A stretch of DNA of 64,000 nt from assembly GCA_016785015.1 (NCBI GenBank), contig JADHTJ010000004.1:16142-80141 (forward strand). Reading direction: 5' to 3'. Origin of the DNA: Anaerolineales bacterium. GTDB taxonomy: Bacteria; Chloroflexota; Anaerolineae; Anaerolineales; UBA11858. Under the pieces are notes generated by a model. The model was given only the letters and a program-made list of their open reading frames with translations. It searched no databases and was not told where the DNA came from. Below, piece by piece: positions 7,601-64,000 of the stretch. Position 1 is the stretch's first letter; every line of letters begins with the position of its first letter. The translations under genes and the position numbers were made by a program.

Positions 7601-9232
7601 TTACTTTAGAAGTTCATTATGTATCAAAGCCAGCCCAAACTCATTTTGGTAGAAAATACTGTAACCATCCAACTGATTTTGATATGCATCCCCATAGAAT
7701 TGCTGCCAGGCAAGCATATCACCAGGATCAACAGCACTTTCAACAACATCGGGTTTGATAAACTCGATAACATAGGCCATCTCGAGCAAGAGCAAATCAG
7801 GCTGATGCTGGTTGACATAATCATACGATGCCAATTTCCACTTCATCAGAATATCATAATTGGGCTTTGGAGGCACATACGCGGTCGGGTCGCGGTAGAT
7901 TTTCAACGGTTGTTTGTCAATATTTTGTTCGACCAAAAGCTGCTCGATATCATGGTAGAAAGCGATACTCTCCGAGCGTTCTTCGCGATGTAGGATATCA
8001 GTATAGATTTGGATATCTTTCTGGATATAAATTCCAAATTGGATTAGAAGCAGGATCATCACACCAACTGGAAAGAGGAGCTGATTCACTTTTTGAAGAG
8101 TAAACTGTCTCCAAACATCTTTCCCAAAAGAAATGCGCTCTGGAAAGAGGTGCACTAAACTCGACCCGAGGGGGATTATCAATGGTAAAAAGTAGAGTGG
8201 CCTGATCGACGATGTGCCCACGGTAAAGAGATACGGCAAGATATACATCAAGATCATCACATTGAGCAATCTAAATCGAGGGCTAGTGATTCCTTTGACA
8301 AGTCCCAAGAGCATGATAATCAGCGTGAACCAATGAGCATAGAAGGGCCAGACAATACGATTGATCTTCTCAGCAGTCAAATTCCAGTCAGGATTGACTG
8401 TGTAATATCCTGTGCGAGTTTGCACAAACTGAAGTTGCTGAGTCGCAATTATCTCTGCTCTTTCCTGCGGCACAAGCAGCAAGGGATTTGAGATTACCAA
8501 ACCCAAGATCATTACGATGACGAAAGAAATCGCTAAGATAAATGCACGTTGAAGAACTATTTTTTTCGCAGCAACACCCCAAACGAGATATACAGGAATA
8601 GCTAAAACAAAAAATGCGCCCGAATACTTGACGCTAAAGGCAATTCCACAAATGAATGCAGCAATGTAGAAGCACTTTCCATAATTGAAAGCATCTTTGT
8701 CTATGAAGAAAAAGATCAGCACTACAAGGAGGATTGCTAAACTATCCGGGTGCCACCAAAAATTATTCTGAATCACCGCGGGGATGGCCAACAAAAATAA
8801 TACTGTCCCCAAAGCTTTGAAGAGAGATTTGCGCCTGGCCTGAAGTTCTACCATCAAGGCTACAGAAACGATCATCGGCAGCACGCTGACCAACTGTCGC
8901 AAAAGCAGCATGAGCACAGAGATATTATTGCCCCAATCGGCCCCTGCTAACAATCGATATGAAAACACCATTAACGCTGAAAAGAAATAGAATGGATAGC
9001 CGTAAAAATAATGCAGATAAACGAAGAAACGCCGTAGAGCATCATAAAGGGAATCTCCAGATTTCAACATGCGCACCACATGATTTATCTGAGCGAACTC
9101 ATCCTTCTCGAAGATGGATAACATGTTGATATCTTTCGCGCCAGTGAAATTGGGAAAAATCATCAATGTAAAATAGATGATCCCTATTACGACAATGCCG
9201 AGTAGTGCTTTTCTTTCAGTCGGTATTTTCAT
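7601..9232 (-). CDS. large polytopic membrane protein, GT-C (ArnT/PMT/YfhO-like) glycosyltransferase candidate
   Basis: About 543 aa from ATG 9232 (MKIPTERKALLGIVVIGIIYF...). The longer track start at 9340 would overlap the upstream gene by 125 nt. It has more than 10 hydrophobic segments, an acidic first loop (FEKDEFAQ) and a soluble C-terminal ~130 aa. The family call rests on architecture only. Confidence 0.45.
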   Translation of the reverse strand: MKIPTERKALLGIVVIGIIYFTLMIFPNFTGAKDINMLSIFEKDEFAQINHVVRMLKSGDSLYDALRRFFVYLHYFYGYPFYFFSALMVFSYRLLAGADWGNNISVLMLLLRQLVSVLPMIVSVALMVELQARRKSLFKALGTVLFLLAIPAVIQNNFWWHPDSLAILLVVLIFFFIDKDAFNYGKCFYIAAFICGIAFSVKYSGAFFVLAIPVYLVWGVAAKKIVLQRAFILAISFVIVMILGLVISNPLLLVPQERAEIIATQQLQFVQTRTGYYTVNPDWNLTAEKINRIVWPFYAHWFTLIIMLLGLVKGITSPRFRLLNVMILMYILPYLFTVGTSSIRPLYFLPLIIPLGSSLVHLFPERISFGKDVWRQFTLQKVNQLLFPVGVMILLLIQFGIYIQKDIQIYTDILHREERSESIAFYHDIEQLLVEQNIDKQPLKIYRDPTAYVPPKPNYDILMKWKLASYDYVNQHQPDLLLLEMAYVIEFIKPDVVESAVDPGDMLAWQQFYGDAYQNQLDGYSIFYQNEFGLALIHNELLK

Positions 9233-10667
9233 ACTCACTCGAGAGGATTGAGGGTCTTGAAAAAATCTGCGCACTGGCCGTGACCAATCCAAACAGTACC
9301 CACATGTTGGGGACAGCAAAAGAATCGACAGAAAAAGCAACCCCCAAGAAAACCACCAAACTCAAAAGGCCGGCTTGACCCAGATAACGTGCTTCAGGAT
9401 GAGGCGTCATAAAGAGGTAAAGTGCACAACCCAAAACCCCGACCAAAAATGCCAAAAACGCTGCTGTGCCCAATAATCCTGTTTCGGCTAAGATGCGCAC
9501 AAACATATTTTTGGGCACAACCACTCTGTTGCGACCGTCTGCTGGAGTGAACTTGAGCAGCAACTCTGGCGTGGGAAACAAGGGACGATCTGATAGTTTC
9601 TCTTCAAAATAAAAAGTGTAGTTCCCCAAGCCGATTCCCATCCAAGGATATTCATCGTAGATGCGGTAGGCGGTTTCCCAGTAGGCAATGCGCTGACTGA
9701 CGGCAATATATTGAATATACGAGCCAGCCGCGTTCTCATCGCTCCAATAATTCCACAGGCGTGAAAAATATCGATTGCGTGAACCAGCGATGAACACAAT
9801 CACGCCGATGGCAACAACCAAAACACCAACTTGCAATACTCGTTTGGCAATCATCCCCCAAGGTTTCCCCTTGTCAGTAACTTTGCGGGGTCTGAACATG
9901 AATGCCAAAACTAACTGCACCACCCAGAGTACGTAGCCTGTGCGCGAATAGGTATAGATCAACACCACAGAAGCCCAAACCAGGAGCAGCATCTCGACGG
10001 TCAGCCAGCGAAGACGCCAGCGGAAAGCTGTGTAGTTGGACAAAACCGCGGCGAACAACCAGGGCATTAGCAAAAATGAGATTTGCTCCGCGAACCAATT
10101 TGGTTCGTAGGTCATCCCAGATATGCGTGTTTCAAATAAACCCCGCACAGAGATAAAGCCCTGTAGGTGTTCAATGAAATCAAAATATTCGGGTGAATAG
10201 AAAAGAATATAACTAATCTGGATCGACCCCCACAACAAAGCCATCACAAAACCACCATACAACCAACGTAGAGAAAAGCGCATCTCATCTTTCGAAGATG
10301 GTGTTACAGCCACGGTGATATAGAATGCAATCCCTATTGCTAAGGTGACCAACATACGGAAGGTCCGCGAAGACACTGTGATGCCAATATCAGGGTCGAT
10401 ACCTTGGGTAAATGCAATGGTGGTGCTGGCAATGGCCGCTAACCCAAAAGCACCCAAAGGGAATGCGGTTTTAGGGATTGGTTTGCTAAGTAAGCGTGGG
10501 ATCGTTACAAGTATGACAAGAATGACCAAAGGATAAAGTGAAAGCGGCCGAACTTCAGTGCGTCCTCCCACACCGCCTGGGAAAAAGGGAAAGCTGGTCA
10601 CTGGCAGTGAAATAAGGAATATGGCCCAAACAATTTTCTGGGCAATTGGAAACCAAGATAGACGCAC
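9216..10667 (-). CDS. O-antigen ligase / polymerase-like (Wzy_C-type) polytopic membrane protein
   Basis: Multi-TM protein with the Wzy_C-like block LLLVWASVVLIYTYSRTGYVLWVVQLVLAF and a large loop before the last TMs. I chose the start at GTG 10667 because GGAGAG lies 7 nt upstream and it overlaps the upstream TAG by 1 nt. The track's TTG at 10715 is the alternative. Confidence 0.6.
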   Translation of the reverse strand: MRLSWFPIAQKIVWAIFLISLPVTSFPFFPGGVGGRTEVRPLSLYPLVILVILVTIPRLLSKPIPKTAFPLGAFGLAAIASTTIAFTQGIDPDIGITVSSRTFRMLVTLAIGIAFYITVAVTPSSKDEMRFSLRWLYGGFVMALLWGSIQISYILFYSPEYFDFIEHLQGFISVRGLFETRISGMTYEPNWFAEQISFLLMPWLFAAVLSNYTAFRWRLRWLTVEMLLLVWASVVLIYTYSRTGYVLWVVQLVLAFMFRPRKVTDKGKPWGMIAKRVLQVGVLVVAIGVIVFIAGSRNRYFSRLWNYWSDENAAGSYIQYIAVSQRIAYWETAYRIYDEYPWMGIGLGNYTFYFEEKLSDRPLFPTPELLLKFTPADGRNRVVVPKNMFVRILAETGLLGTAAFLAFLVGVLGCALYLFMTPHPEARYLGQAGLLSLVVFLGVAFSVDSFAVPNMWVLFGLVTASAQIFSRPSILSSEYENTD

Positions 10668-11725
10668 TATGCTTCTCTCCGCTGGGATATTCGAACTAGA
10701 CCAATCAACAGCCAAGCAGCGACTGCCAAGATCCCGCCTACTAACATCAATGTTCCCGAAGGGCGTACATCTTCGACTTGAGCGGATACCTCTTTCGATT
10801 TTTCTAAATCCATAGCCGCAGATAGTCCTAAGCTTTTCTCCGCCGCTTCAGCGTATTGTGAAGATAACGTGTCGTGTTGCTCTTCTAGAAATTCAATTCT
10901 TTCGGGCAAGATCTCAAGGTCGCTCTCAACCATAACAGTGGCGCGCTCCACCCAGGCCAGGTATTCAGCAGGAGATTCATCGGGGATAGGATAATCTTCG
11001 AGAAGTTCAGACCAACCCAGGTTCCAGTCCGCGGCTTGTGTAGTTTGAGACAATAAACGCCAATGGTCATAGGATCCCATGGGATCATCCAACGATGCAT
11101 CTTCCAATTCTCGTTTGGCTTCTTCTAATTCTGCCTTTATCTGCATCAGAGTCTGATATCGCACTAACTGGTATGTTAATTCATCCGCCGTTGCCACCAA
11201 GGAAGCGTCTAAGGCAACCATCTCGCGGGCGCTATTGATGCCAATATTCATGCGCTCATCGATCACTTCTGCCCAGGTATCAACTGCCTGAATTGCCAGT
11301 TCAGGCTGCGCTGCATCGGCGGCTAGATGCCAGCGGCCAGCATTACGCCACGAACCACGCAACTGATAAAAAATATCTTCAACGGTGACATCATTCCAGC
11401 TTTTGTCTGTTGATTGCAAACGCGTTAATGTATCAGACAGGAATTCATCGGTTAGCGATAAGCCGTTGATCTGTTCCATCTGCCAATTTTTGTAGTCATC
11501 AAGTTTGCGCAATTCATCTTGAACAATCTGAACGATATAGCGATCGCGCGGGCCGCGATAGGCGTTGATACCGACATATAAATCTAATTCTGCCCGATAT
11601 AAGGGAGGCATCAATCTGGATACTCCCCACCCCAAAACAGCGCCTACTAAAAAGCAGAGTGCAATGATATACCAGCGGTGTGTTAATGTAAAAACTACGT
11701 CGCGTAAGTTCCAATCGTTGTTCAT
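10667..11725 (-). CDS. Wzz-like polysaccharide chain-length determinant (PCP) protein
   Basis: 352 aa with the classical PCP topology. An N-terminal TM (WYIIALCFLVGAVLGWGVS) is followed by PPLYRAELDLYV. A long helical/coiled middle (LMQIKAELEEAKRELED...) follows, then a C-terminal TM (LMLVGGILAVAAWLLIGLV). Confidence 0.7.
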   Translation of the reverse strand: MNNDWNLRDVVFTLTHRWYIIALCFLVGAVLGWGVSRLMPPLYRAELDLYVGINAYRGPRDRYIVQIVQDELRKLDDYKNWQMEQINGLSLTDEFLSDTLTRLQSTDKSWNDVTVEDIFYQLRGSWRNAGRWHLAADAAQPELAIQAVDTWAEVIDERMNIGINSAREMVALDASLVATADELTYQLVRYQTLMQIKAELEEAKRELEDASLDDPMGSYDHWRLLSQTTQAADWNLGWSELLEDYPIPDESPAEYLAWVERATVMVESDLEILPERIEFLEEQHDTLSSQYAEAAEKSLGLSAAMDLEKSKEVSAQVEDVRPSGTLMLVGGILAVAAWLLIGLVRISQRREA

Positions 11726-11767: not shown

Positions 11768-12898
11768 TTATAAAGATTCAAGTAGAACCTGATAAAGCTG
11801 CATCGTGAGGCGGTTGATCTTATAATGGGTGAACTTTTCCAGGATAAGTTTGCGTCCTTCAACCCCCATCTTCATTCGTAACGCGGGATTCAAAGCGAGC
11901 CGTTCTAAAGCATCTGCAAGAGCGATAGGGTCGTTTGGCGGGATCAACAAACCATTCACCTCATGCTGAACGATAGAGCGGCAGCCGGGCATATCTGTGG
12001 AAACCACGGGTCGGCCGCAAGCAGCAGCTTCAATGAGCGTACGCGGAACCCCTTCTCCATACATGGTGGGCAGCGCAACGATATTACTTTGGGCATAAAC
12101 ATGTTCCATATCGTTTTTCCACCCCCACCATTCGATCACTCCCTGCCGGTGCCATTCGTTGAGCATTTCTACTTTCAAAGATGTCGGGTTTCCGGGGTCG
12201 GGCTCTCCTACCAGCACCATACGCAAATCTAAACGATCACCTAATATTCGTGCAGCTTCCACAAACACCCCAACACCTTTATCCCACAAAGTTCGTGCAG
12301 CCATCATGACGACAACGGAACTTTTGTTAGGTTCAAGGGTCGGTGAAAATCGCCCGGGGTCTGCACCCACACTTTCAATAAGCTGCTGCTTATCTTTCGA
12401 TACGAAACCTGCATCCAAGAAGAAATCGCTATCAGACTGATTTTCAAAGATTACCATCGAGGAAATATTCCGCAAGACAGAACGATAAAACGGCCAAAGC
12501 AGCCTTCGGATCACTCGGGCTTTTAATTCTCTCCCCAGGAAAACATATCCACGCCCGGATATGGAGTTGACCACCCCAGGGATACCGCTAAGAAAGGCAG
12601 CTACAGAACCATACAGAACCGCTTTGATAGTATGGTGGTGCACAATATCCGGGCGCTCTCGGCGGTAAATTTTCGTTATATGATAAAGTGAGATTATTTC
12701 ACGCCAAAGAGCAACACTTCTTCGTTGAAGTTTCCAGGGATACCAAATGAAACCATCATCCAAAAAATGTTGAATAAACTCTCCGGGTGGGGAAACCAAT
12801 CGAACATCGAATCCTTTTTCTCTGAGATCATGGATTAAGGCGTAACGGAAGTTATATAAGAACCAGTCGGTGTTGGCTGTGAGGATGATCTTTGGCAT
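11768..12898 (-). CDS. glycosyltransferase, GT-B fold (GT4-like)
   Basis: C-terminal Glycos_transf_1 signature EGVPRTLIEAAACGRPVVSTDMPGCRSIV...NGLLIPPND. I set the start at ATG 12898 (MPKIILTANTDW...), since the track start at 12994 would overlap the upstream gene. Confidence 0.8.
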   Translation of the reverse strand: MPKIILTANTDWFLYNFRYALIHDLREKGFDVRLVSPPGEFIQHFLDDGFIWYPWKLQRRSVALWREIISLYHITKIYRRERPDIVHHHTIKAVLYGSVAAFLSGIPGVVNSISGRGYVFLGRELKARVIRRLLWPFYRSVLRNISSMVIFENQSDSDFFLDAGFVSKDKQQLIESVGADPGRFSPTLEPNKSSVVVMMAARTLWDKGVGVFVEAARILGDRLDLRMVLVGEPDPGNPTSLKVEMLNEWHRQGVIEWWGWKNDMEHVYAQSNIVALPTMYGEGVPRTLIEAAACGRPVVSTDMPGCRSIVQHEVNGLLIPPNDPIALADALERLALNPALRMKMGVEGRKLILEKFTHYKINRLTMQLYQVLLESL

Positions 12899-12942
12899 GG
12901 GGTAGCGGTTAGATACGCCTTCGGTGGATTGGATATTAGATT

Positions 12943-40102: not shown

Positions 40103-40220
40103 GTTACTTAGTCTCAAATTGTTACAACGAAAACGCCGACCACAAAGCCGGCGGCCCAAAATCATATCATGCTTTGAGAAAAATTGCTTGTGAAATTTCC
40201 TTCAAAATAGGCGGCTTTTG

Positions 40221-41150: not shown

Positions 41151-41212
41151 GGGCTTACTTCTTATTTGTAAATCTACTGGATGGTATATAATTTGGCACA
41201 TTCGAATAGAAA

Positions 41213-44868: not shown

Positions 44869-44872
44869 ATTT

Positions 44873-47155: not shown

Positions 47156-47163
47156 ATTTGTTA

Positions 47164-58267: not shown

Positions 58268-59376
58268 CAACTCAGAGCTATCTGATAGGCCTCGAATAAT
58301 TGGGGGAAATTCTTTTCCCAATTTGCGCGTGATTCAGCTAATCGACGGGCTGTCTGCCCCATGGCAGGTAACTGTTCCCGAAGATCTACAGCCCGAAGGA
58401 TTCCTTCGACGAGGGAATCCACATCCCCATCGCGAAACAACCAACCGACGTCACCCTGAGATGTAATCCATTCCTGGTTCCCAGGGATATCAGTCAACAG
58501 GACAGGCGTGCCGCACCCTAAGGATTCCAACAACGAGATTGAAGTGCCATCACTATGAGATGTGCTGATATATAAATCTGCCGCGCGATAAAAATTTGGC
58601 AAATCGTTCTGGTTGACTTGCCCCGGGAAGTGCACCCGATCGAGCACATCCGCCTGCATGAAAATCTGCCGAATTTTGGGCGCTAGTGGGCCATTCCCCA
58701 ACATCAACAGACGCAGTTCTGGTCGCTGACGGGCTGCTCTGACAAAAGCACGCGCCAGATCATCGACACCGTAAATTGGCGCCCATCCCCGGGTAGACAA
58801 CAACACAAATGTATCATTGCCCCAACCAAGACGTTCACGCAAGCCACCGTCATCTCCTGGAGAATACTTATCGATATTCGCCCCCCAAGGGAAGGTCACG
58901 ATACGATCCCCCGCCATGCCATACTTCACGGCGAGGTTTCGGATGGTATCGCAATCCCCAACCAGGGCATCAGTTCTTCGAAGGGTGTATCGTGTCGCCC
59001 ATTCCCACCAACGGTCTCGATTCACATCCATCAGCAGGTCGTACCCCCAAGACATACTTACCAAAGGATGAAAACCCGATAACGCTGCCAAGAATGCCGA
59101 ACGCTGCAAAGGGCCAGCCTGAACTAAATCCGGATTGAATTCTCGGATAACTTTCTGTAATCCAAGTAGTAAACTCAAGCCATTTCGCAACTTTGCAGGT
59201 GACTTCCCCCCTGCCCATGGGATTAGTTCGATATCAGGTGGTAAGGGTCTGTCTTCAAGGTCATGGCCGCGCTTTTCCAAACGCAGAAATCCCACCTGAT
59301 GTTCGGTCGTAGCTAATGCGGAAAGGTAACGATGATCGTGGGTTGTGTAATCACGCGAGAAGTAGAGTATTCTCAT
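58267..59376 (-). CDS. glycosyltransferase, GT-B fold (GT4-like)
   Basis: 369 aa with [18 protein letters not shown] and the C-domain [32 protein letters not shown] (ExxxxxxE). Confidence 0.8.
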
Positions 59377-59391: not shown

Positions 59392-59440
59392 GTTGAACGT
59401 TCAACGTTTAAACGTTCAGACGTGTAAACGCTAAACGCCG
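59392..59440. repeat. heptanucleotide array with overlapping perfect palindromes (GTTGAAC GTTCAAC GTTTAAA CGTTCAG ACGTGTA AACGCTA AACGCCG)
   Basis: gttgaacgttcaac and aacgtttaaacgtt are both perfect 14-nt palindromes. The array runs into the stop codon of the NeuB-family gene (59431-59433). Confidence 0.75.
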
Positions 59441-60513
59441 ACATTCTCCCAACGCAGATCCATGCCATACGGCATATCGACCAGCGCTTTCTTACCAACC
59501 AGGTCATCCAACTCCCAGGGCATAATGGCTCCAGAAGCCGCGGGACGCAGGGGTTCTACCATTTCGGCGGTGAGAGTTTCTCCAGCCTTGATATCCCGGG
59601 CAGCGCGCAGGCAGCGGCGTTGGAGCACGTATGTTTCCTTTTCACTTCCGGTAACAAATTTATCGTACGAACCCAGTGATCGTTCCAAAGTGCGAACTTG
59701 ATGAACCATCTCAGCCCAATTTTCGGGGTTCATGGCAAATTTGTGATCAGGGCCTTCGCGATCGTTACTGTCGGTGAAATGCCGCTCAATGACGCGGGCG
59801 CCTAAAGCCACTGCCCCAACAACCGGCGCCGGGCTATGCGTGTGGTCAGAGAGCCCGAGCACTACATCACGGAACATGGCGGCGTAGGTTTTGAGCACAT
59901 TAATATTTAAATTATCATAATTCGAATCTGCTGCGGTGTAATTTGTGTTGCACTGCAAGAGCACAATTTGGTCATTGACAGCCTGCACAGCTCGCATGGC
60001 TCGGACGACATCTCCAATGTCGGCAGCGCCAGTCGCCATCAAGAAGGGTTTGCCCATGCTGGCCATACGCACAAGCACCTCTGGCCAGGACATCAATCCA
60101 GAACCTGCCTTGAAGGCTGGCACATAAGGATCGAGCATCTCGATGGCTTCATAATCATATGGAGAAGAGTAGTAGTGGATGCCAACTTTGTCGCACTCTT
60201 CTTTGAGAATCGGAGTCCACTCGAAAGGCACTGAGGCAGCGTCATAAACTTCGAAGACAGTTTTACTCCATTCTGCCTGATGTGATTGCTGCCCGCCGAG
60301 AGCTTTGAAACCATAATCTGAAACAATTTTTGGGGCGCGGAAATTCTGGAATTTAGCGGCCTCAGCCCCAGCATCTTTTGCCAGTTTGATAAGCGTTTTA
60401 GCACGCTCCAAATCACCATCGTGGTTTGCTGCAATATCAGCAATAAAATATGTTGGGTGGTTGAGGCCAACCTTGCGATTATCAATAGTAATTTCAGGAG
60501 ATGGTGTTTTCAT
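59431..60513 (-). CDS. NeuB-family ulosonic-acid synthase (NeuB/PseI/LegI-like) with SAF domain
   Basis: Start at ATG 60513 (MKTPSPEITIDNRKVG...); the alternative is ATG 60537. Motifs: TYFIADIAANHDGDLERAKTLIKLAKDAGAEAAKFQNF, LLQCNTNYTA, LSDHT. The SAF-like C-terminus is RAARDIKAGETLTAEMVEPLRP. Confidence 0.8.
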   Translation of the reverse strand: MKTPSPEITIDNRKVGLNHPTYFIADIAANHDGDLERAKTLIKLAKDAGAEAAKFQNFRAPKIVSDYGFKALGGQQSHQAEWSKTVFEVYDAASVPFEWTPILKEECDKVGIHYYSSPYDYEAIEMLDPYVPAFKAGSGLMSWPEVLVRMASMGKPFLMATGAADIGDVVRAMRAVQAVNDQIVLLQCNTNYTAADSNYDNLNINVLKTYAAMFRDVVLGLSDHTHSPAPVVGAVALGARVIERHFTDSNDREGPDHKFAMNPENWAEMVHQVRTLERSLGSYDKFVTGSEKETYVLQRRCLRAARDIKAGETLTAEMVEPLRPAASGAIMPWELDDLVGKKALVDMPYGMDLRWENVGV

Positions 60514-60566
60514 AGTTGCACCTCTGTCTTTGAGCATAGCTACGGATGCAGAATTATTCTTTGGTC

Positions 60567-61487
60567 TTAGCTATCAATACACAAAGATTGAACAGTTTGT
60601 GGATAACCTTGTTGATAAAGTGTATAAAACCGGTCTATTGCTGGGGATATACCTGGAGGAACTATGCCCAAATCGTGGATAAGTTTATCAACTTTCAGAG
60701 TAAGCTGTGGAGAGCGAACTGCTTTCAGTCCAGATTGGGTCACTGACATTGGGGTAATGAGATCGACATCAAAGCCAAATCTGTTTGCAATCGCAACAGC
60801 AAAATCGTACTTATTAATGCTTTCACTGCCAACCACATGATAAAGCCCGCTGAGGCCCTTCTCAAGCATCTGGAAAAATATGCCGGCAAGGTCGTTTACC
60901 AAAATGGGGCAGAAATATACATCCGTAAAGCCCCTCATCTGATTGCCTGCATCAAAATTATTGAAGAAAAATTCAGCCAAGCTCCGTTTACCAGTGGGAC
61001 TCCACCCAAAAATATTGATGCGTGCTACGATTGCCTGAGGTGCTTCTTCCAAGACAGCATATTCACCATCTAGCTTTGTTTTTGCATAAACATTTACAGG
61101 ATTTGGTAGGTCATTCTCCGAATATTCACCCTTATGGCCATCAAAGACTGCGTCTGTAGAAACGTGGAGCAGGCGCGCTCCGCCCCTGGCGACAAGCTGT
61201 GCCAGTTTTCGCGGCATTTCTGTATTCAACTCCCGGGCATTTTCTGGATCGTGCTCGCACGCATCTACATTTGCCTGAGCAGCGCAATGGATCACCCAAT
61301 CAGGCTGAGTTTCATCAAGGATACGTTCCATCACGCCCGGGTCTAGCAAATCGGCCACAACTGGTGTGAAGGCCTCTGTTTTCTGTGGGCAACTCCGAGC
61401 AACCCCGAAAACAGTGTGGGCACTGGCAGCTTCCAAAGCTAAATTACTACCTAACAAGCCACCCGTACCAGTAATAAGTATTCGCAT
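60567..61487 (-). CDS. RmlD-like (dTDP-4-dehydrorhamnose reductase family) NAD(P)-dependent sugar reductase
   Basis: Start at ATG 61487 (MRILITGTGGLLGSNLALEA). Also HCAAQANVDACE and YAKTKLDGE (YxxxK). Length is ~306 aa. Confidence 0.7.
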   Translation of the reverse strand: MRILITGTGGLLGSNLALEAASAHTVFGVARSCPQKTEAFTPVVADLLDPGVMERILDETQPDWVIHCAAQANVDACEHDPENARELNTEMPRKLAQLVARGGARLLHVSTDAVFDGHKGEYSENDLPNPVNVYAKTKLDGEYAVLEEAPQAIVARINIFGWSPTGKRSLAEFFFNNFDAGNQMRGFTDVYFCPILVNDLAGIFFQMLEKGLSGLYHVVGSESINKYDFAVAIANRFGFDVDLITPMSVTQSGLKAVRSPQLTLKVDKLIHDLGIVPPGISPAIDRFYTLYQQGYPQTVQSLCIDS

Positions 61488-61550
61488 TATCTTTACCCTG
61501 TATTCTCTGCTTACGCTAAGCACAGATAAACAAAGAATACAAGGCAAACA

Positions 61551-62576
61551 TCATAAGGTTAGTTTTCCTTGTGCGAATGTAATTTCAAAAGGTTCCACAA
61601 TCTCGCGAATTTGGTCAACATCAAGCCACTCCGGATTCTCTGCACTGGAGTAGCGGAATCCATCGGAAACAGGTTTCCCCTTCTCTTTCCACCTCCCACC
61701 AAACCAAAAGGCTTCTGCGGGCTGAACAACAAACATATCATCCAGTTCAATGGTAGTGCGTGACTCATCCCGAGAAATCAACATCTCATGTAATTTCTCG
61801 CCAGGACGAATACCAATAATTTCCAAATCTGCATCTGGAGCCATTGCTTTGGCAAGATCAACCACTTTCATACTGGGGATCTTGGGAACAAAGACCTCCC
61901 CACCCTGCATATTTTCAATATTTTTAATCACAAATCGGACACCCTGCTCAAGAGACAGCCAGAAGCGTGTCATACGCTCATCCGTTATCGTCAGCTTGCC
62001 ATTAGTAGCCTTTTGGCGAAGGAACACTGGCACAACGCTTCCACGACTACCAACAACATTGCCATATCGCACGCAGCTCAAACGAGTTTCATACTTACCC
62101 GCATATGCGTTGCTCTGTACGACCAGCTTTTCCGCAGCGAGCTTTGTGGCTCCGTAGAGGTTTACGGGATTCACGGCTTTATCAGTGCTCAAAGCCAAAA
62201 CTTTTTTGACCCCAGTATCCAGGGCGGCATCGACTACGTTGCTGCTTCCAAGGATATTCGTTTTTACTGCTTCCATGGGATTATATTCACACGCTGGAAC
62301 CTGCTTGAGAGCGGCTGCATGAACAACAATATCCACTGACTGCATCGCCCGTTTGAGGCGCTCTAAGTCGCGCACATCGCCAATAAAATAACGCAAATTG
62401 GGGTGATCGAATCCAGCCACGCGCATTTCATGCTGTTTCAATTCATCTCGACTAAACACAATTACTTTTGCCGGCTGGAACTCATCCAGCATGATTTTCG
62501 CAAATGCTTTTCCAAAGGAACCGGTTCCTCCGGTAACCAAAATTACTTTATCTTTCCAGTTCATATCTAACTCCAT
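61551..62576 (-). CDS. UDP-GlcNAc 4,6-dehydratase family protein (PseB/FlaA1/CapE/WbvB-like, Polysacc_synt_2)
   Basis: 341 aa. KVILVTGGTGSFGKAF...VFSRDELKQHEMR...RYFIGDVRDLERL...VVHAAALKQVPACEYNPMEAVKTNILGS...YGATKLAAE...RYGNVVGSRGSVVP...MTRFW is closely colinear with Helicobacter FlaA1/PseB as I remember it. Confidence 0.8.
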   Translation of the reverse strand: MELDMNWKDKVILVTGGTGSFGKAFAKIMLDEFQPAKVIVFSRDELKQHEMRVAGFDHPNLRYFIGDVRDLERLKRAMQSVDIVVHAAALKQVPACEYNPMEAVKTNILGSSNVVDAALDTGVKKVLALSTDKAVNPVNLYGATKLAAEKLVVQSNAYAGKYETRLSCVRYGNVVGSRGSVVPVFLRQKATNGKLTITDERMTRFWLSLEQGVRFVIKNIENMQGGEVFVPKIPSMKVVDLAKAMAPDADLEIIGIRPGEKLHEMLISRDESRTTIELDDMFVVQPAEAFWFGGRWKEKGKPVSDGFRYSSAENPEWLDVDQIREIVEPFEITFAQGKLTL

Positions 62577-62599: not shown

Positions 62600-63466
62600 C
62601 TAGGATTTTCGGATGACAAACATTGGGTATTGACCCTTCTCACCAAAGAAATGCGGGAACAAATCTTCTAACCAAAACAATAATCGTAGTAAAAGACGTC
62701 CACCAAATCCCTGATGGATGAAGGTCCGTAAATGCTTGACGCTAACTCCTCGCCAGACATATATCTCAAAATGCATCAAAGGAGTTAGTTGGCTTTTCAA
62801 CCAAGTAGCGCCATACTTACGCACAAAAGTGCTTTTGGGTTTGTTTTCCTCGGCATCTGTCTTGGGTTTGGCTGGATGCACCGGTGGTGCAATGCCGAAT
62901 ACACGTCGCAAGATGCCAATGCCGCGATTTGTCCACCGCATAGGGGCAGCCAATAATTGAGGGATTAGGGCCTCGCCCCAACCATTGACTACAACTACCT
63001 GACATTCTTTGGCTAACACCCGGTACAATTCCTGATAAGCTGAGATATGTTCATCTGAAGGCAAATGATGGATAGTGTGCAATGAGACAATCCCTTCAAA
63101 AACACCCGGCTTGAAGGGGAGATTTGCCACATCTGCCACGACACATAGACCATGCTCGCCAGTGCGTTTGCAAGCGTCTTTCAAGGCGACGTGGGAGATA
63201 TCCGCACATACACGAAATTTATACCCTTTTGAGTATTCCAGATATTCAGGATATTGGATTGGACCGCTGCCCGCATCCAATAGATATTTCCCTTCTGCCT
63301 TCAAATGGCGGAGCACGCGCATATGACAGCGATGGATATATTCATGCGATACTGGCCTTAAATCTTCATAACGTGCATTCTGATAAATCCCCTCGCTGAC
63401 CTCTTGCCAGCCAACCTTATCATAGAATTCGCGCACATTCTGTTTAATTTCTGTTTCAGTCGTCAT
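62600..63466 (-). CDS. class I SAM-dependent methyltransferase
   Basis: 288 aa with motif I YLLDAGSGPIQY, then CADISHVAL and VSLHTIHHLP. Confidence 0.7.
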   Translation of the reverse strand: MTTETEIKQNVREFYDKVGWQEVSEGIYQNARYEDLRPVSHEYIHRCHMRVLRHLKAEGKYLLDAGSGPIQYPEYLEYSKGYKFRVCADISHVALKDACKRTGEHGLCVVADVANLPFKPGVFEGIVSLHTIHHLPSDEHISAYQELYRVLAKECQVVVVNGWGEALIPQLLAAPMRWTNRGIGILRRVFGIAPPVHPAKPKTDAEENKPKSTFVRKYGATWLKSQLTPLMHFEIYVWRGVSVKHLRTFIHQGFGGRLLLRLLFWLEDLFPHFFGEKGQYPMFVIRKS

Positions 63467-63480
63467 ACTAAATCAAACTT

Positions 63481-64000
63481 TTACTCCACCCCATAGATAT
63501 CTATGGGATCTATGTTTTTCAACGCATCTCGATAAAAACTGAGATACCCTCGTAATATCAACAAACTTGTCAATAAGGACCAATGAGTTTCAGCCGGATA
63601 GCCCAGATCGCTCATGGGTTTCTTAGCAATCTGCTCGATGATCTGGACATCTCTCGCTGGTATTTCAGTTTTCCATCGGCCAATTGGCTTTGAGCTAATC
63701 TCAGAAAACTTCTCTGAGAAAGTTGAATTCGCCTTCCATGGCTCTCCCATCAATGAGGGAACTCTGAGAATTTGATGATCTGTAATGCCTAAGAATTCAG
63801 CCAATTGATGCATGGTTCCTTCCAGATCATTTACCAATTGTTCATAATTGATCAGCAGATAGCGATCTTTTCCAAAGACTTTTTGGTTTTCTAAACCCTT
63901 CTCAACACTGCGTGCCCAACGTAGGGAAAACTTTCTCGCAAGAACATTCCGTCTTCTTGGCTGATAGGATGCAAAAACGTCGCGAGGATCTCGCACCAGA
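63481..64000 (-). CDS. sulfotransferase, C-terminal part; gene runs off the right edge
   Basis: The frame is open to position 64000. The first visible residues include RDPRDVFAS (3'-PB motif), then YEQLVNDLEGTMHQLAEFLG, typical of the sulfotransferase C-terminal half. The 5'-PSB motif would lie outside the window. Confidence 0.65.
   Translation of the reverse strand, partial: LVRDPRDVFASYQPRRRNVLARKFSLRWARSVEKGLENQKVFGKDRYLLINYEQLVNDLEGTMHQLAEFLGITDHQILRVPSLMGEPWKANSTFSEKFSEISSKPIGRWKTEIPARDVQIIEQIAKKPMSDLGYPAETHWSLLTSLLILRGYLSFYRDALKNIDPIDIYGVE

What the first reader, a model, noticed from the sequence alone, without database searches (positions are those of the whole stretch)
7601..64000. 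At least 56-kb one-orientation glycan cluster with its own PAPS supply, four sulfotransferases, five methyltransferases and two ulosonic-acid modules
Seen in sequence:
- There are 47 consecutive genes, 46 on the minus strand, most separated by fewer than 15 nt or overlapping (ATGA at 32712-32715 and 55034-55037; TGATG at 58265-58269).
- Sulfation genes: a Sat-CysC fusion (38262..39986) and four domains with 5'-PSB/3'-PB sulfotransferase motifs (C-terminus of 22389..24260, 31864..32715, 43825..44868, 63481..>64000).
- Five SAM-methyltransferase domains.
- Two NeuB-family synthases and three CMP-sugar-type cytidylyltransferases.
- A DUF115/sialyltransferase-like protein.
- About 15 GT-A/GT-B domains and five GT-C-like membrane proteins.
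- A Wzm/Wzt exporter, a Wzz-like protein and a ligase-like protein, with an LCP ligase 5 kb further left.

Established knowledge: sulfated bacterial glycans are uncommon. Known examples are rhizobial Nod factors and surface polysaccharides, mycobacterial sulfolipids and some cyanobacterial exopolysaccharides. PAPS is the universal sulfate donor for such transferases.

Inference: the locus builds a heavily sulfated, O-methylated, ulosonic-acid-containing wall- or surface-linked polymer. I do not know of a described system with this combination and size.
Basis: partly seen in the sequence, partly recalled or inferred. Interest (0 to 1): 0.85.

Follow-up and report, generated by a model that had tools for sequence, protein, structure and literature searches.

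The report
Giant sulfated surface-sugar gene cluster
An uncultured Anaerolineales (Chloroflexota) bacterium carries a roughly 65-kb block of genes that should build sulfated, methylated surface sugar chains containing sialic-acid-like sugars; all the parts are known enzyme types, but this combination has not been described in this poorly understood phylum.

Summary
Profile searches confirm a Sat-CysC PAPS synthase and four sulfotransferases with intact PAPS-binding motifs. They also confirm five methyltransferase domains, two NeuB synthases, three CMP-type cytidylyltransferases, a DUF115 protein, about 15 GT-A/GT-B domains, Wzm/Wzt, Wzy_C, a weak Wzz and a nearby LCP.

Corrections:
- There are six GT-C-like proteins, not five.
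- One quoted overlap is GTGA, not ATGA.
- The locus continues about 8 kb past the window end. There it has a MarR-type regulator, Gmd, an Fcl-like gene, a second Wzm/Wzt with a Wzt_C domain, and a third KpsC/S-like gene.

The host is an uncultured Anaerolineales lineage. The central block is syntenic in at least 12 species genomes. A smaller ulosonic-acid core cassette occurs in dozens of more distant metagenome contigs that lack the sulfation genes in the stretch fetched. Sulfation therefore looks like a clade-specific add-on.

The locus is not one operon. It has two exporters, one opposite-strand gene and a strong terminator-like hairpin upstream of Sat-CysC. The identity of the ulosonic acids is unresolved, because no aminotransferase, NeuC or PseG homologue is present.

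A Vibrio capsule locus with its own PAPS genes, sulfotransferases and ABC export is already published. I rate this a new variant of a known kind, of moderate interest.

The parts
1673..3106 (-). LCP (LytR-CpsA-Psr) ligase in the left flank. Candidate enzyme for attaching the glycan to peptidoglycan.
   Evidence: Pfam LytR_cpsA_psr 134.7 bits and LytR_C 36.9 bits. Linkage to the cluster in relatives was not tested.
7601..9340 (-). GT-C-like membrane protein 1; last gene at the left end of the cluster.
   Evidence: PMT_2 24.8 bits, just below the cutoff of 26.1. About 11 hydrophobic segments.
9216..10715 (-). Wzy_C-domain protein (O-antigen-ligase or O-oligosaccharyltransferase type).
   Evidence: Wzy_C 53.4 bits. 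Homologues at 30-37% lie next to GT2a in tier-2 loci.
10667..11725 (-). Wzz/PCP-like protein.
   Evidence: Wzz 23.2 bits, below the cutoff of 25.5. N- and C-terminal transmembrane segments.
11768..12994 (-). GT4 glycosyltransferase a.
   Evidence: Glycos_transf_1 99.8 bits.
12943..14082 (-). GT4 glycosyltransferase b.
   Evidence: Glycos_transf_1 46.6 bits.
14094..14855 (-). Wzt, the ABC ATPase of exporter 1. It has no carbohydrate-binding domain.
   Evidence: ABC_tran 66.9 bits. 42% identical to Wzt2.
15045..15872 (-). Wzm, the ABC-2 permease of exporter 1.
   Evidence: ABC2_membrane 76 bits.
15886..17991 (-). GT-C-like membrane glycosyltransferase 2.
   Evidence: PMT 35.2 bits and PMT_2 30.2 bits.
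17972..21541 (-). 1189-aa fusion of a SAM methyltransferase with two GT4 domains. Candidate chain builder and modifier.
   Evidence: Methyltransf_25 54.9 bits; Glyco_trans_1_4 116.9 bits in 2 stretches.
21631..22416 (-). GT2 glycosyltransferase a; part of the widely conserved core.
   Evidence: Glycos_transf_2 100.4 bits. Conserved at 53-74% in related loci.
22389..24260 (-). GT2-sulfotransferase fusion (ST1).
   Evidence: Glycos_transf_2 90.8 bits; Sulfotransfer_3 37.9 bits over aa 314-549. HRSGTT and RHPVAFVSS motifs. The fused architecture is rare: 2 of the top 150 representatives.
24332..25879 (-). GT-C-like membrane glycosyltransferase 3; part of the core.
   Evidence: PMT_2 37.5 bits. 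Conserved in the core cassette.
25883..27409 (-). GT-C-like membrane glycosyltransferase 4; paralogue of protein 3.
   Evidence: PMT_2 57.8 bits. 33% identical to 24332-25879.
27621..28445 (-). MptE-like/DUF115 protein. Candidate CMP-ulosonic-acid transferase.
   Evidence: MptE-like 52.9 bits. Weak N-terminal similarity to CstII sialyltransferases. Conserved at 57-87%.
28485..29258 (-). Short-chain dehydrogenase SDR1; part of the core.
   Evidence: adh_short_C2 191 bits.
29262..30224 (-). D-2-hydroxyacid dehydrogenase family oxidoreductase; part of the core.
   Evidence: 2-Hacid_dh_C 202 bits.
30228..30899 (-). Cytidylyltransferase CTP1; part of the core.
   Evidence: CTP_transf_3 95.1 bits. 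PseF-like at 65 bits, below cutoff.
30915..31886 (-). GT2 glycosyltransferase b.
   Evidence: Glycos_transf_2 93.8 bits.
31864..32715 (-). Sulfotransferase ST2, sitting inside the ulosonic-acid cassette.
   Evidence: Sulfotransfer_1 34.5 bits. PKSGTH and RDPRDVCVS motifs. Absent from tier-3 loci.
32712..34334 (-). KpsC/KpsS-like (Capsule_synth) GT-B protein. Candidate ulosonic-acid transferase.
   Evidence: Capsule_synth 32.6 bits. BFO_1060_trans 39.6 bits. Invariant IRAHPDE motif. Best PDB hit for its profile is KpsC 6mgd at E=0.051.
34541..36430 (-). Fusion of NeuB, SAF and a xylose-isomerase-like TIM barrel (ulosonic-acid synthase 1).
   Evidence: NeuB 278 bits, SAF 40.5 bits, AP_endonuc_2 95.9 bits. 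NeuB_NnaB 345.9 bits, below the cutoff of 399.65. PDB hits to SiaC and PseI.
36450..37202 (-). Cytidylyltransferase CTP2.
   Evidence: CTP_transf_3 69.1 bits. PseF 155.3 bits, below the cutoff of 205.7.
37430..38251 (-). Short-chain dehydrogenase SDR2.
   Evidence: adh_short_C2 165 bits.
38262..39986 (-). Sat-CysC fusion (ATP sulfurylase plus APS kinase): the PAPS supply.
   Evidence: Pfam. Embedded in the same cluster in at least 12 species genomes. An orthologue at 79% identity lies outside any glycan locus in L029.
40034..40153 (-). Two terminator-like hairpins in the 234-nt gap upstream of Sat-CysC. Likely boundary of a transcription unit.
   Evidence: A 17-bp stem with 8 GC pairs at 40075-40034 and an 8-bp stem at 40153-40134. 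No Rfam family matches.
40221..41201 (-). Unknown protein with one N-terminal transmembrane segment.
   Evidence: Only a faint SH3_3 hit, E=0.003. Conserved at 51-76% in close relatives.
41213..42820 (+). GT-C-like membrane protein 5; the only plus-strand gene.
   Evidence: No Pfam hit of its own. About 11 hydrophobic segments. 2931 homologues, some carrying PMT_2 or named arabinofuranosyltransferase by JGI.
42817..43821 (-). GFO/IDH/MocA oxidoreductase.
   Evidence: Pfam. Directly abuts SDR2 in tier-3 loci.
43825..45084 (-). Sulfotransferase ST3. The true start is probably near 44925.
   Evidence: Sulfotransfer_3 81.1 bits. ARSGTT and RDGRDAVIS motifs. The public gene call is 366 aa.
44873..46303 (-). 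BFO_1060/TagB-like GT-B protein. Candidate ulosonic-acid transferase.
   Evidence: NCBIfam BFO_1060_trans 49.6 bits. Faint Glyphos_transf hit. IRLHP motif.
46307..47203 (-). SAM methyltransferase MT2.
   Evidence: Methyltransf_11 47.4 bits.
47164..48123 (-). GT2 glycosyltransferase c.
   Evidence: Glycos_transf_2 55.4 bits.
48127..50352 (-). Lineage-restricted GT-C-like membrane protein 6, with a beta-sandwich insert.
   Evidence: No Pfam hit. Only 18 homologues. AF2 model with pLDDT 82.5. The top Foldseek hits are all GT-C enzymes (STT3, AglB, PMT, DPY19, AftB, ArnT) at probability about 1 and TM about 0.3.
50365..51399 (-). GT2 glycosyltransferase d.
   Evidence: Glycos_transf_2 43.7 bits.
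51433..52386 (-). GT2 glycosyltransferase e.
   Evidence: Glycos_transf_2 59 bits. 46% identical to GT2c.
52393..53271 (-). SAM methyltransferase MT3.
   Evidence: Methyltransf_23 76.9 bits.
53280..54173 (-). GT-A-fold glycosyltransferase with no Pfam hit.
   Evidence: AF2 pLDDT 89.7. Foldseek hits to GT2-type glycosyltransferases at probability 1.0. NCBI names the identical protein 'GT family 2'.
54177..55037 (-). Cytidylyltransferase CTP3.
   Evidence: CTP_transf_3 123.9 bits. KdsB-like hits of 87 bits, below cutoff.
55034..56350 (-). DUF4910/DUF2172 metallopeptidase-like protein.
   Evidence: Pfam. The family is linked by gene neighbourhood to modified-sugar synthesis (PMC4000134).
56362..57117 (-). 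AAC(3)-like N-acetyltransferase.
   Evidence: Antibiotic_NAT 161.4 bits.
57136..57366 (-). Conserved 76-aa Cys-rich small ORF, uncalled in public records.
   Evidence: 75% identical over its full length in L028:85-312.
57422..58321 (-). Weak methyltransferase. The likely start is ATG at 58267, in the TGATG overlap.
   Evidence: MTS 25.4 bits. Overlap checked. The public gene call is 281 aa.
58267..59376 (-). GT4 glycosyltransferase c.
   Evidence: Glycos_transf_1 99.2 bits.
59431..60537 (-). NeuB plus SAF (ulosonic-acid synthase 2).
   Evidence: NeuB 210.9 bits. NeuB_NnaB 247 bits and PseI 232 bits, both below cutoff.
60567..61547 (-). RmlD-like 4-reductase.
   Evidence: RmlD_sub_bind 203 bits. 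rmlD 187.7 bits, below the cutoff of 224.
61551..62576 (-). PseB: UDP-GlcNAc 4,6-dehydratase (inverting).
   Evidence: NCBIfam PseB 498.7 bits, above the cutoff of 407.75.
62600..63466 (-). SAM methyltransferase MT5.
   Evidence: Methyltransf_11 48.3 bits.
63481..64000 (-). 3' part of sulfotransferase ST4, cut by the window end. The locus continues beyond it.
   Evidence: Sulfotransfer_3 41.2 bits. The full 334-aa gene in L006 scores 111 bits and has PRSGTS and RDPRDVFAS motifs. L006 matches the end of the window exactly over the two 200-base stretches tested.

Best explanation
This is a composite cell-envelope glycan locus of an uncultured Anaerolineales bacterium. It spans about 65 kb and about 55 genes, and about 8 kb of it lies beyond the window.

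Core cassette. The centre is a cassette that is widespread in related lineages: (GFO)-SDR2-CTP2-NeuB-KpsC/S-like-GT2b-CTP1-2HADH-SDR1-DUF115-GT2-GT-C-GT2a. NeuB makes a 2-keto-3-deoxy (ulosonic) acid from PEP and an aldose, and CTP2 activates it as a CMP-sugar. By analogy with EpaA/EpaB, the trio CTP1-2HADH-SDR1 probably re-tailors and re-activates it. HP-motif GT-B proteins and the DUF115 protein then transfer it.

Sulfation layer. In this clade a sulfation layer appears to have been added onto that cassette. Sat-CysC makes PAPS in the cytoplasm. Soluble sulfotransferases, one of them fused to the core GT2, sulfate the growing lipid-linked glycan before export. Five SAM methyltransferases act at the same stage.

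Second module. A second module runs through PseB, an RmlD-like reductase, NeuB2 and CTP3, and continues beyond the window with Gmd, an Fcl-like gene, a third KpsC/S-like gene, ST4 and MT5. It sits next to a second Wzm/Wzt whose ATPase carries a Wzt_C carbohydrate-binding domain. That arrangement suggests a chain whose non-reducing end is capped and then recognised for export.

After export. Six GT-C-like enzymes probably add sugars from polyprenyl-phosphate donors. The Wzy_C protein and/or the LCP enzyme attach the product to a membrane, protein or peptidoglycan acceptor.

Shown: the family assignments, the motifs, the synteny, and the absence of sulfation genes in the sampled distant relatives. 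Inferred: every substrate, the order of the steps, capping, and the acceptor.
For: - Domain assignments for all ORFs.
- PAPS-binding motifs in all four sulfotransferases, and no transmembrane segments in the sulfotransferases or methyltransferases, so they are probably cytoplasmic.
- The host is Anaerolineales.
- The block hyp476-ST3-GFO-(GT-C)-(hyp326)-SatCysC-SDR2-CTP2-NeuB fusion-KpsCS-ST2-GT2b-CTP1-2HADH-SDR1-DUF115 is syntenic in at least 12 species-representative genomes, at 55-95% amino-acid identity.
- The left part, as far as Wzm, is syntenic in L042 and L043.
- About 30 of 43 longer metagenome loci keep the core cassette.
- In tier-3 loci the GT2 has no sulfotransferase domain, no ST2 or ST3 is found, and GFO abuts SDR2 with no Sat-CysC between them.
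- A Sat-CysC orthologue at 79% identity in L029 sits between housekeeping genes, next to a TauE/SafE gene.
- KpsCS, KpsCS2 and hyp476 share an I-R-x-H-P motif. All three hit the NCBIfam model built around the Tannerella forsythia Pse/Leg transferase.
- EpaA (CTP_transf_3 plus reductase) and EpaB (SDR) are shown by NMR to convert Pse to 8-epi-Pse (PMC12053666).
- The extension beyond the window has MarR_EPS, Gmd (506 bits, cutoff 415), Wzm2, Wzt2 with Wzt_C, KpsCS2 and ST4.
- GT-C assignments.
- Chloroflexota lack BAM and LPS pathways, and their outer layers are thought to be polysaccharide or protein (cited in PMC13319060).
Against: - There is no chemistry, expression or genetics. Everything rests on homology and gene context in metagenome-assembled genomes.
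- No initiating polyprenyl-phosphate glycosyltransferase (Bac_transf or MraY-like) is present in the roughly 76 kb examined.
- No CysQ-type PAP phosphatase and no recognisable sulfate transporter is present.
- The NeuB substrates are unknown, because no aminotransferase, NeuC or PseG homologue is present.
- The KpsC/S-like assignments are weak: 25-50 bits, and PDB E=0.051.
- The analogy between CTP1-2HADH-SDR1 and EpaA/EpaB rests on domain types, not orthology.
- 'Sulfation is an add-on' rests on windows of 10 kb either side. Tier-3 genomes could carry the sulfation genes elsewhere.
- The 80 loci kept by the metagenome scan are the best-scoring ones, not a random sample.
Confidence: 0.7

Rival explanations
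1. One reading: one co-transcribed cluster makes one heavily sulfated, methylated, ulosonic-acid-containing polymer.
For: - 46 of 47 genes lie on one strand, and most gaps are under 15 nt or are overlaps.
- The central 20 kb is conserved as a unit.
Against: - There are two diverged ABC exporters (together).
- The plus-strand gene 41213-42820 overlaps the 3' end of GFO by 4 nt, in convergent orientation.
- A strong terminator-like hairpin lies at 40034-40075.
- There are six gaps of about 190-300 nt.
- The flanks are co-oriented too, so strand bias is not evidence for an operon.
- Modules are gained and lost among relatives. For example, GT2d, GT2e and the 741-aa GT-C are missing in L020 and L028. 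MT-GT4x2 and GT-C 2 are missing in tier-2 loci.
Confidence: 0.15
2. The product is mainly a protein-linked O-glycan (on an S-layer, sheath or surface protein) rather than a wall-linked polysaccharide. In this reading the Wzy_C protein acts as an O-oligosaccharyltransferase, and the DUF115 and BFO_1060-like proteins add terminal ulosonic acids. This would resemble the Tannerella forsythia and Geobacillus S-layer glycan systems.
For: - Wzy_C domain.
- DUF115 (Maf family) and BFO_1060-family hits.
- A methyltransferase-GT multidomain protein combined with ABC export resembles the Geobacillus stearothermophilus slg locus (my own knowledge).
- Chloroflexota lack lipid A, so a WaaL role is unlikely.
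- The compact 13-kb core in L097 looks more like an oligosaccharide system than a polymer system.
Against: - An LCP ligase lies 5 kb away.
- A Wzz-like protein and a Wzt_C domain point to long chains.
- No candidate acceptor protein was identified.
- Wzy_C proteins also ligate teichoic acid to glycolipid, as TacL does in pneumococci (my own knowledge).
Confidence: 0.3
3. The sulfation genes are not glycan-directed. Sat-CysC serves ordinary sulfur assimilation, and the sulfotransferases modify lipids or small molecules that merely happen to be encoded here.
For: - Sat-CysC orthologues in other Chloroflexota sit outside glycan loci.
- No acceptor can be read from a sulfotransferase sequence.
- This sulfotransferase family is large and uncharacterised: 849 representative clusters at E<=1e-30.
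Against: - One sulfotransferase is covalently fused to the core GT2.
- ST2 sits between the KpsC/S-like gene and GT2b, and its coding region overlaps both.
- Sulfotransferases and Sat-CysC co-occur with the cassette in at least 12 species, and all are missing together in tier-3 loci.
- No cysH or sulfite reductase is nearby.
Confidence: 0.07

Closest known systems
Vibrio sp. KMM 8419 sulfated capsule locus (PMC11641403)
   Same: - A large locus (80 genes).
- It combines nucleotide-sugar genes, glycosyltransferases, an ABC (Kps) exporter and KpsS/C.
- It has its own second copies of the PAPS-synthesis genes and three sulfotransferases.
- The sulfated product is chemically proven.
   Different: - It belongs to a Gram-negative host with KpsD/E.
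- PAPS synthesis uses cysD/N/C rather than a Sat-CysC fusion.
- The sulfated sugar is rhamnose.
- The paper passages I read do not mention NeuB modules, GT-C enzymes, a GT2-sulfotransferase fusion or an LCP.
Synechocystis xss (synechan) cluster (PMC8205485)
   Same: A dedicated exopolysaccharide locus with two sulfotransferases and eight glycosyltransferases, shown genetically to make a sulfated polysaccharide.
   Different: - It uses the Wzx/Wzy/PCP pathway.
- The paper mentions no PAPS genes (0 occurrences of 'PAPS').
- It has no ulosonic-acid genes.
- It is a plasmid-borne cyanobacterial system.
ABC-transporter-dependent O-polysaccharide systems with terminal capping (E. coli O9a WbdD/Wzt-CBM; Klebsiella O12 or Raoultella WbbB beta-Kdo cap). 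From my own knowledge.
   Same: - A Wzm/Wzt pair, with a Wzt_C domain on the second exporter.
- Multidomain methyltransferase/GT4 proteins.
- A Kdo-transferase-like GT-B and modifying enzymes lie directly beside the ATPase that carries the carbohydrate-binding domain.
   Different: - This host is presumably monoderm, so there is no lipid A-core acceptor.
- The cap chemistry is unknown.
- Sulfotransferases are not known components of those systems.
Tannerella forsythia general O-glycosylation with terminal Pse or Leg derivatives (PMC5420450)
   Same: A terminal nonulosonic acid is added by a GT-B/TagB-like transferase with an HP motif. Three proteins here hit the NCBIfam model named after BFO_1060. 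Methylated sugars are also involved.
   Different: The hits are far below the family cutoff (29-50 bits against 200). T. forsythia has the full Pse or Leg pathways and no sulfation.
EpaA/EpaB conversion of pseudaminic acid in Acinetobacter (PMC12053666)
   Same: A second CTP_transf_3 enzyme plus oxidoreductases re-tailor an already made nonulosonic acid. The domain logic matches CTP1-2HADH-SDR1.
   Different: EpaA carries an aldo-keto reductase domain, not a 2-hydroxyacid dehydrogenase. Orthology was not tested. EpaA/EpaB are phage-borne genes in a proteobacterium.
Rhizobial NodPQ/NodH and LpsS sulfation. From my own knowledge.
   Same: A dedicated ATP sulfurylase/APS kinase is encoded next to a carbohydrate sulfotransferase, providing a private PAPS supply.
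   Different: The substrates are lipo-chitooligosaccharide or LPS. The loci are small, and there is no link to ulosonic-acid or GT-C genes.

Membership tests
PAPS-dependent carbohydrate sulfation module | ATP sulfurylase plus APS kinase encoded in the locus | tested here: met
   38262-39986: ATP-sulfurylase 279 bits and APS_kinase 213 bits.
PAPS-dependent carbohydrate sulfation module | Sulfotransferase fold with 5'-PSB and 3'-PB PAPS-binding motifs | tested here: met
   Four proteins are above the Pfam cutoffs, and the motifs are present in all four.
PAPS-dependent carbohydrate sulfation module | A sulfated glycan product | not testable with these tools
   This needs chemistry on biomass or an enrichment.
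PAPS-dependent carbohydrate sulfation module | PAP removal (CysQ) and sulfate uptake encoded alongside | tested here: not met
   No Inositol_P/CysQ or known sulfate-permease family was found among the ORFs of the window or the L006 extension. These could be encoded elsewhere.
ABC-transporter-dependent glycan assembly (O-PS, WTA or SCWP type) | Wzm (ABC-2 permease) and Wzt (ATPase) pair | tested here: met
   14094-14855 and 15045-15872. A second pair is present in L006.
ABC-transporter-dependent glycan assembly (O-PS, WTA or SCWP type) | Carbohydrate-binding Wzt_C domain that recognises a chain cap | tested here: met
   Wzt2 in L006:6045-7370 carries PF14524 Wzt_C, from a precomputed hit. It lies outside the window. 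The cap itself is inferred.
ABC-transporter-dependent glycan assembly (O-PS, WTA or SCWP type) | Initiating polyprenyl-phosphate glycosyltransferase (WecA/TagO or WbaP type) | tested here: not met
   No Glycos_transf_4 or Bac_transf hit in any ORF. Such enzymes are often encoded elsewhere.
ABC-transporter-dependent glycan assembly (O-PS, WTA or SCWP type) | Ligase to the final acceptor | tested here: inconclusive
   Wzy_C (53.4 bits) and LCP (134.7 bits) are both present. The acceptor is unknown.
Canonical pseudaminic acid pathway (PseB, C, H, G, I, F) | PseB | tested here: met
   61551-62576 scores 498.7 bits, above the cutoff of 407.75.
Canonical pseudaminic acid pathway (PseB, C, H, G, I, F) | PseC aminotransferase (DegT family) | tested here: not met
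   No aminotransferase family was found in any ORF of the window or the extension. An RmlD-like reductase follows PseB instead.
Canonical pseudaminic acid pathway (PseB, C, H, G, I, F) | PseG UDP-sugar hydrolase and PseH acetyltransferase | tested here: not met
   No GT28-like or GNAT PseH hit was found. Only an AAC(3)-like acetyltransferase is present.
Canonical pseudaminic acid pathway (PseB, C, H, G, I, F) | PseI and PseF at equivalog level | tested here: inconclusive
   PseI scores 231.7 and 246 bits against a cutoff of 340.25. PseF scores 155.3 bits against a cutoff of 205.7.
Sialic acid pathway (NeuC, NeuB, NeuA) | NeuB at equivalog level, plus a NeuC hydrolysing 2-epimerase | tested here: not met
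   NeuB_NnaB scores 345.9 and 247.3 bits against a cutoff of 399.65. No Epimerase_2 hit was found.
KpsC/KpsS beta-Kdo transferases (group 2 capsule linker) | Capsule_synth domain | tested here: met
   32.6 bits (32712-34334) and 25.3 bits (L006 copy), against a cutoff of 20. The PDB KpsC hit is only E=0.051.
KpsC/KpsS beta-Kdo transferases (group 2 capsule linker) | CMP-Kdo supply (KdsA and KdsB) and a lyso-phosphatidylglycerol acceptor | tested here: not met
   No DAHP_synth_1 (KdsA) hit. CTP3 is only KdsB-like at 87 bits, against cutoffs of 193-255. The acceptor is not testable.
Maf flagellin nonulosonic-acid transferases | DUF115/MptE-like domain in a full-length Maf protein next to flagellin genes | tested here: not met
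   The domain is present at 52.9 bits. The protein is only 274 aa, and no flagellar genes occur in the window or flanks.
GT-C membrane glycosyltransferases | Multi-pass membrane protein with PMT/ArnT/STT3-type fold | tested here: met
   Three proteins are above the PMT_2 or PMT cutoffs and one is just below. 41213-42820 is assigned through homologues carrying PMT_2. 48127-50352 is assigned through its AF2 model and Foldseek (TM-scores are low, about 0.3).

The most novel reading that the evidence does not exclude
Sulfate is placed on, or next to, a new kind of nonulosonic acid. One candidate is a 5-acetamido-7-hydroxy-9-deoxy sugar made by PseB plus a 4-reductase instead of an aminotransferase. 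The sulfated or methylated ulosonic-acid end would act as the chain-terminating cap that the Wzt_C-bearing exporter recognises. That would be a sulfate-containing export signal on a Chloroflexota envelope polymer. The NeuB-TIM-barrel fusion would supply an unusual aldose substrate.
Probability: 0.1. Interest if true: 0.8.

Novelty: new variant of a known kind. Interest (0 to 1): 0.5.

Why it matters
The outer envelope layers of Chloroflexota are chemically almost unknown. They lack LPS and are thought to be polysaccharide or protein.

Separately, sulfated and sialic-acid-like polymers are measured in sludge exopolymers. The genes behind them are largely unidentified, and BLAST with reference sulfotransferases finds little (PMC10483923).

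This locus and its wider family give concrete, conserved candidate genes that link PAPS supply, sulfotransferases and ulosonic-acid synthesis in an abundant uncultured lineage. The relatives that carry the cassette with and without sulfation genes form a natural comparison for experiments. The GT2-sulfotransferase fusion and the large stand-alone sulfotransferase family (at least 849 clusters) are also leads for enzymatic polysaccharide sulfation.

Tried and rejected
- Rfam, gathering thresholds, whole window: no hit. The long leader upstream of Sat-CysC is therefore not a known riboswitch.
- Sigma-70 promoter scan: the counts (39, 41 and 33 sites) sit only 1.1-2.1 standard deviations above the shuffle means (30.1, 29.6 and 27.5). 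I did not use them. Only the 40034-40075 hairpin stands out among the terminators.
- PDB sequence searches with 32712-34334 and 44873-46303 as single sequences: nothing. A profile of 32712-34334 gives only KpsC at E=0.051.
- hhalign of the KpsC/S-like profile against the hyp476 profile: probability 7%, E=0.005. Common ancestry is not shown beyond the shared R-x-H-P motif and the shared NCBIfam hit.
- Naming the ulosonic acids from NCBIfam equivalogs: both NeuB proteins and all three cytidylyltransferases fall below every cutoff.
- Search for an aminotransferase, NeuC, PseG, an initiating phosphoglycosyltransferase, Wzx, CysQ or a sulfate permease: none in the window or the extension.
- NCBIfam on the GT2, GT4, GT-C and Wzy_C proteins: only generic sub-threshold hits.
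- Considered and rejected:
  - Flagellin glycosylation island: no flagellar genes, and the DUF115 protein is short.
  - LPS O-antigen: the phylum lacks lipid A pathways.
  - Recent internal duplication: the paralogues are only 22-46% identical.
- Literature searches for Anaerolineae combined with sulfotransferase or nonulosonic acid: no paper on such a locus.

Full report
**What is in the window**

The window has 51 ORFs of at least 100 aa that tile it almost without gaps. All are on the minus strand except 41213-42820. I scanned every one against Pfam and the sugar-related ones against NCBIfam.

- Sat-CysC fusion, 38262-39986: PUA_2, ATP-sulfurylase and APS_kinase, at 151, 279 and 213 bits.
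- Four sulfotransferases: the C-terminal half of 22389-24260, 31864-32715, 43825-45084, and the truncated 63481-64000.
- Five SAM-methyltransferase domains.
- Two NeuB synthases: 34541-36430 and 59431-60537.
- Three CTP_transf_3 cytidylyltransferases: 30228-30899, 36450-37202 and 54177-55037.
- An MptE-like/DUF115 protein: 27621-28445.
- Six GT2 and five GT4 domains.
- Wzt and Wzm: 14094-14855 and 15045-15872.
- Wzy_C: 9216-10715.
- A weak Wzz-like protein: 10667-11725.
- LCP at 1673-3106.

All four sulfotransferases have a 5'-phosphosulfate-binding loop (HRSGTT, PKSGTH, ARSGTT, PRSGTS) and a 3'-phosphate-binding motif. Neither the sulfotransferases nor the methyltransferases have membrane segments. 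They should therefore act in the cytoplasm, where PAPS and SAM are.

**Corrections to the observation**

- 32712-32715 is GTGA, not ATGA. The other two quoted overlaps are right.
Public gene calls miss it, but it is 75% identical over its full length in a relative whose other proteins are 43-83% identical.
- There are six GT-C-like proteins, not five.
  - Four have PMT/PMT_2 hits, one of them just below cutoff.
  - 41213-42820 has 2931 homologues, some carrying PMT_2.
  - 48127-50352 has only 18 homologues. Its AlphaFold model (pLDDT 82.5) matches only GT-C enzymes at high Foldseek probability, although with low TM-scores.
- 53280-54173 is a GT-A-fold glycosyltransferase.
- 44873-46303 is a GT-B/TagB-like protein. 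It hits the NCBIfam BFO_1060 model, as do the two KpsC/S-like proteins.
- Co-orientation extends into the flanks, so it is not evidence for an operon on its own.

**Origin and true extent**

Identical proteins occur in NCBI MAGs labelled Anaerolineales bacterium and in several ENA and Logan metagenome assemblies. The closest species-representative genomes are uncultured Anaerolineales, at up to 95% identity on Sat-CysC.

A contig from the same strain (L006) matches the window end exactly over the two 200-base stretches tested. It shows that the locus continues upstream of transcription. In order, it carries:
- full-length ST4 (334 aa);
- a third KpsC/S-like gene;
- a second Wzt that carries a Wzt_C carbohydrate-binding domain;
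- a small 23S_rRNA_IVP gene;
- a second Wzm;
- an Fcl-like gene, Gmd (506 bits, cutoff 415) and a GalE-like gene;
- a MarR_EPS-like regulator, followed by a divergent gene.

The whole locus is therefore about 65 kb and about 55 genes.

**Conservation**

Using Sat-CysC as the probe, 12 species genomes keep it embedded in the same gene order, at 55-95% identity. That order is hyp476-ST3-GFO-(GT-C)-(hyp326)-SatCysC-SDR2-CTP2-NeuB fusion-KpsCS-ST2-GT2b-CTP1-2HADH-SDR1-DUF115. More distant Sat-CysC homologues are not in glycan loci. In L029 (79% identity) the gene sits between aconitase and a TauE/SafE permease.

Using the GT2-sulfotransferase fusion as the probe in metagenomes, 575 stretches encode relatives. 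Among the 43 longer loci I see three tiers.
- Tier 1 (about 77% identity) keeps the left half as far as Wzm.
- Tier 2 (about 50-58% identity) keeps the GT2 with its sulfotransferase domain. Some loci also have ST2- or ST3-like genes, and two (L055, L071) show the NeuB-TIM-barrel fusion.
- Tier 3 (about 45-50% identity on the GT2 part only) includes a 3.0-Mb contig.
  - It keeps the cassette (GFO)-SDR2-CTP2-NeuB-KpsCS-GT2b-CTP1-2HADH-SDR1-DUF115-GT2-GT-C-GT2a.
  - Its NeuB is short and its GT2 has no sulfotransferase domain.
  - It has no sulfotransferase genes, and GFO lies directly next to SDR2.

Pfam on the L097 example confirms this. It also shows that the cassette ends next to a Mur ligase gene.

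The simplest reading is that a widespread ulosonic-acid glycan cassette acquired sulfation at three insertion points in this clade. Two limits apply. Only 10 kb on either side was visible, and the loci kept are the top-scoring ones.

**Architecture and likely mechanism**

The locus is not one operon, for these reasons:
- It has two exporters whose subunits are only 42% and 30% identical.
- It has one convergent, opposite-strand gene.
- A 17-bp GC-rich hairpin with T-runs on both strands lies at 40034-40075. A second hairpin lies at 40134-40153. Both fall in the 234-nt gap before Sat-CysC.
- Five further gaps measure 190-300 nt.

I propose the following sequence. Every substrate, and the order of the steps, is inferred.
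1. Glycans are assembled in the cytoplasm on a lipid carrier by the GT2, GT4 and GT-A enzymes.
2. NeuB enzymes make ulosonic acids, which the CTP_transf_3 enzymes activate.
3. CTP1-2HADH-SDR1 re-tailor the first acid. This follows the analogy of EpaA (CTP_transf_3 plus reductase) and EpaB (SDR), which convert Pse into 8-epi-Pse.
4. The acids are transferred by the three R-x-H-P-motif GT-B proteins and the DUF115 protein. The HP motif is one of the conserved motifs of the T. forsythia Pse/Leg transferases.
5. PAPS-dependent sulfation and SAM-dependent methylation occur before export. The GT2-sulfotransferase fusion argues that at least one sulfate goes onto the sugar that the GT2 adds, or onto its neighbour.
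6. Export goes through the two ABC transporters. The second exporter, which has Wzt_C, lies directly beside a KpsC/S-like transferase, ST4 and MT5. These are the enzyme types that make chain-terminating caps in the E. coli O9a and Klebsiella O12 type systems (my own knowledge).
7. The six GT-C enzymes decorate the product outside the membrane.
8. The product is attached by Wzy_C and/or LCP. Chloroflexota lack LPS and BAM pathways. Wzy_C is therefore more likely to be a protein or glycolipid ligase than a WaaL.

**What cannot be said**

The ulosonic acids cannot be named. PseB is a confident equivalog (498.7 bits against a cutoff of 407.75). It is followed by an RmlD-like reductase, and no aminotransferase, PseG, PseH or NeuC homologue exists in the roughly 76 kb examined. 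Both NeuB proteins and all three cytidylyltransferases are below every NCBIfam cutoff.

The PseB/RmlD-like pair could equally make a 6-deoxy-hexosamine building block. The DUF4910 plus AAC(3)-like pair belongs to a neighbourhood already linked to modified-sugar synthesis (PMC4000134). Its chemistry is unknown.

No initiating transferase, CysQ or sulfate transporter is encoded here.

**Comparison with known systems and novelty**

All the parts belong to known families. Placing PAPS-synthesis genes and sulfotransferases inside a polysaccharide locus with ABC export and KpsS/C is already published for Vibrio sp. KMM 8419, with a solved sulfated capsule. Sulfotransferase-bearing exopolysaccharide loci are established in cyanobacteria.

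The sulfotransferase family of the fusion protein is large. It has 849 representative clusters at E<=1e-30, nearly all stand-alone proteins of about 310 aa. Only 2 of the top 150 are GT2 fusions.

What I could not find described is the following:
- such a locus in Chloroflexota;
- its coupling to two NeuB modules and six GT-C enzymes;
- the GT2-sulfotransferase and NeuB-TIM-barrel fusions;
- the relatives that carry the same cassette with and without sulfation genes.

I therefore rate it a new variant of a known kind. Interest is moderate (0.5). It is useful for two open problems: the chemistry of the Chloroflexota envelope, and the genetic basis of the sulfated and sialylated polymers measured in sludge exopolymers. 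It remains entirely predictive.

Noticed in passing
window 57136-57366 (-): A 76-aa ORF with CxxC...CxC spacing (zinc-ribbon-like) lies in the 304-nt gap between the weak methyltransferase and the AAC(3)-like acetyltransferase. Public gene calls do not include it. It is 75% identical over its full length in L028:85-312.
   Followed up: partly
window 40034-40153: Two terminator-like hairpins lie in the Sat-CysC leader. One is a 17-bp stem with a G8/C-run and T-tracts on both strands. No Rfam family matches. It could be a bidirectional terminator or an unknown regulatory leader.
   Followed up: partly
L006:5686-6048: A 120-aa 23S_rRNA_IVP (four-helix-bundle) gene is wedged between the second Wzm and the second Wzt, and overlaps the start of Wzt. 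Its function here is unknown.
   Followed up: no
window about 8418-8525 (inside 7601-9340): In metagenome sample ERZ24794647 the 68-kb cluster contig and the 20-kb flank contig have the same coverage (about 123.7x). By my coordinate calculation they end within about 100 nt of each other, inside the leftmost GT-C-like gene. Flank contigs from other samples end at similar points. This may reflect a repeat or strain-variable site.
   Followed up: no
window 5488-7569 and 3110-4990 (-): Three genes lie between the cluster and the LCP gene: an InhA-like metalloprotease with a MAM domain, a TPR protein with one membrane segment, and a 182-aa multi-pass membrane protein with no Pfam hit. LCP, the TPR protein and the 182-aa protein are packed 3-11 nt apart. 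Whether any of them belongs to the glycan system is unknown.
   Followed up: no
L097:4-870 and L097:5257-7323: In the non-sulfating relative, the ORF that matches CTP2 carries a HAD (Hydrolase_3) segment. This hints at a phosphorylated ulosonic-acid intermediate. An extra 688-aa protein with no Pfam hit sits between CTP1 and the 2-hydroxyacid dehydrogenase.
   Followed up: no
L029:11775-12590: Where Sat-CysC lies outside a glycan locus (Anaerolineaceae MAG), it is followed by a TauE/SafE-family permease, a possible sulfate or sulfite carrier. No such gene accompanies Sat-CysC in the window.
   Followed up: no
window 48127-50352 (-), aa 121-233: The lineage-restricted GT-C-like protein has a predicted all-beta sandwich inserted after the third helix. 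The insert is probably extracytoplasmic and could be a carbohydrate-binding module.
   Followed up: no
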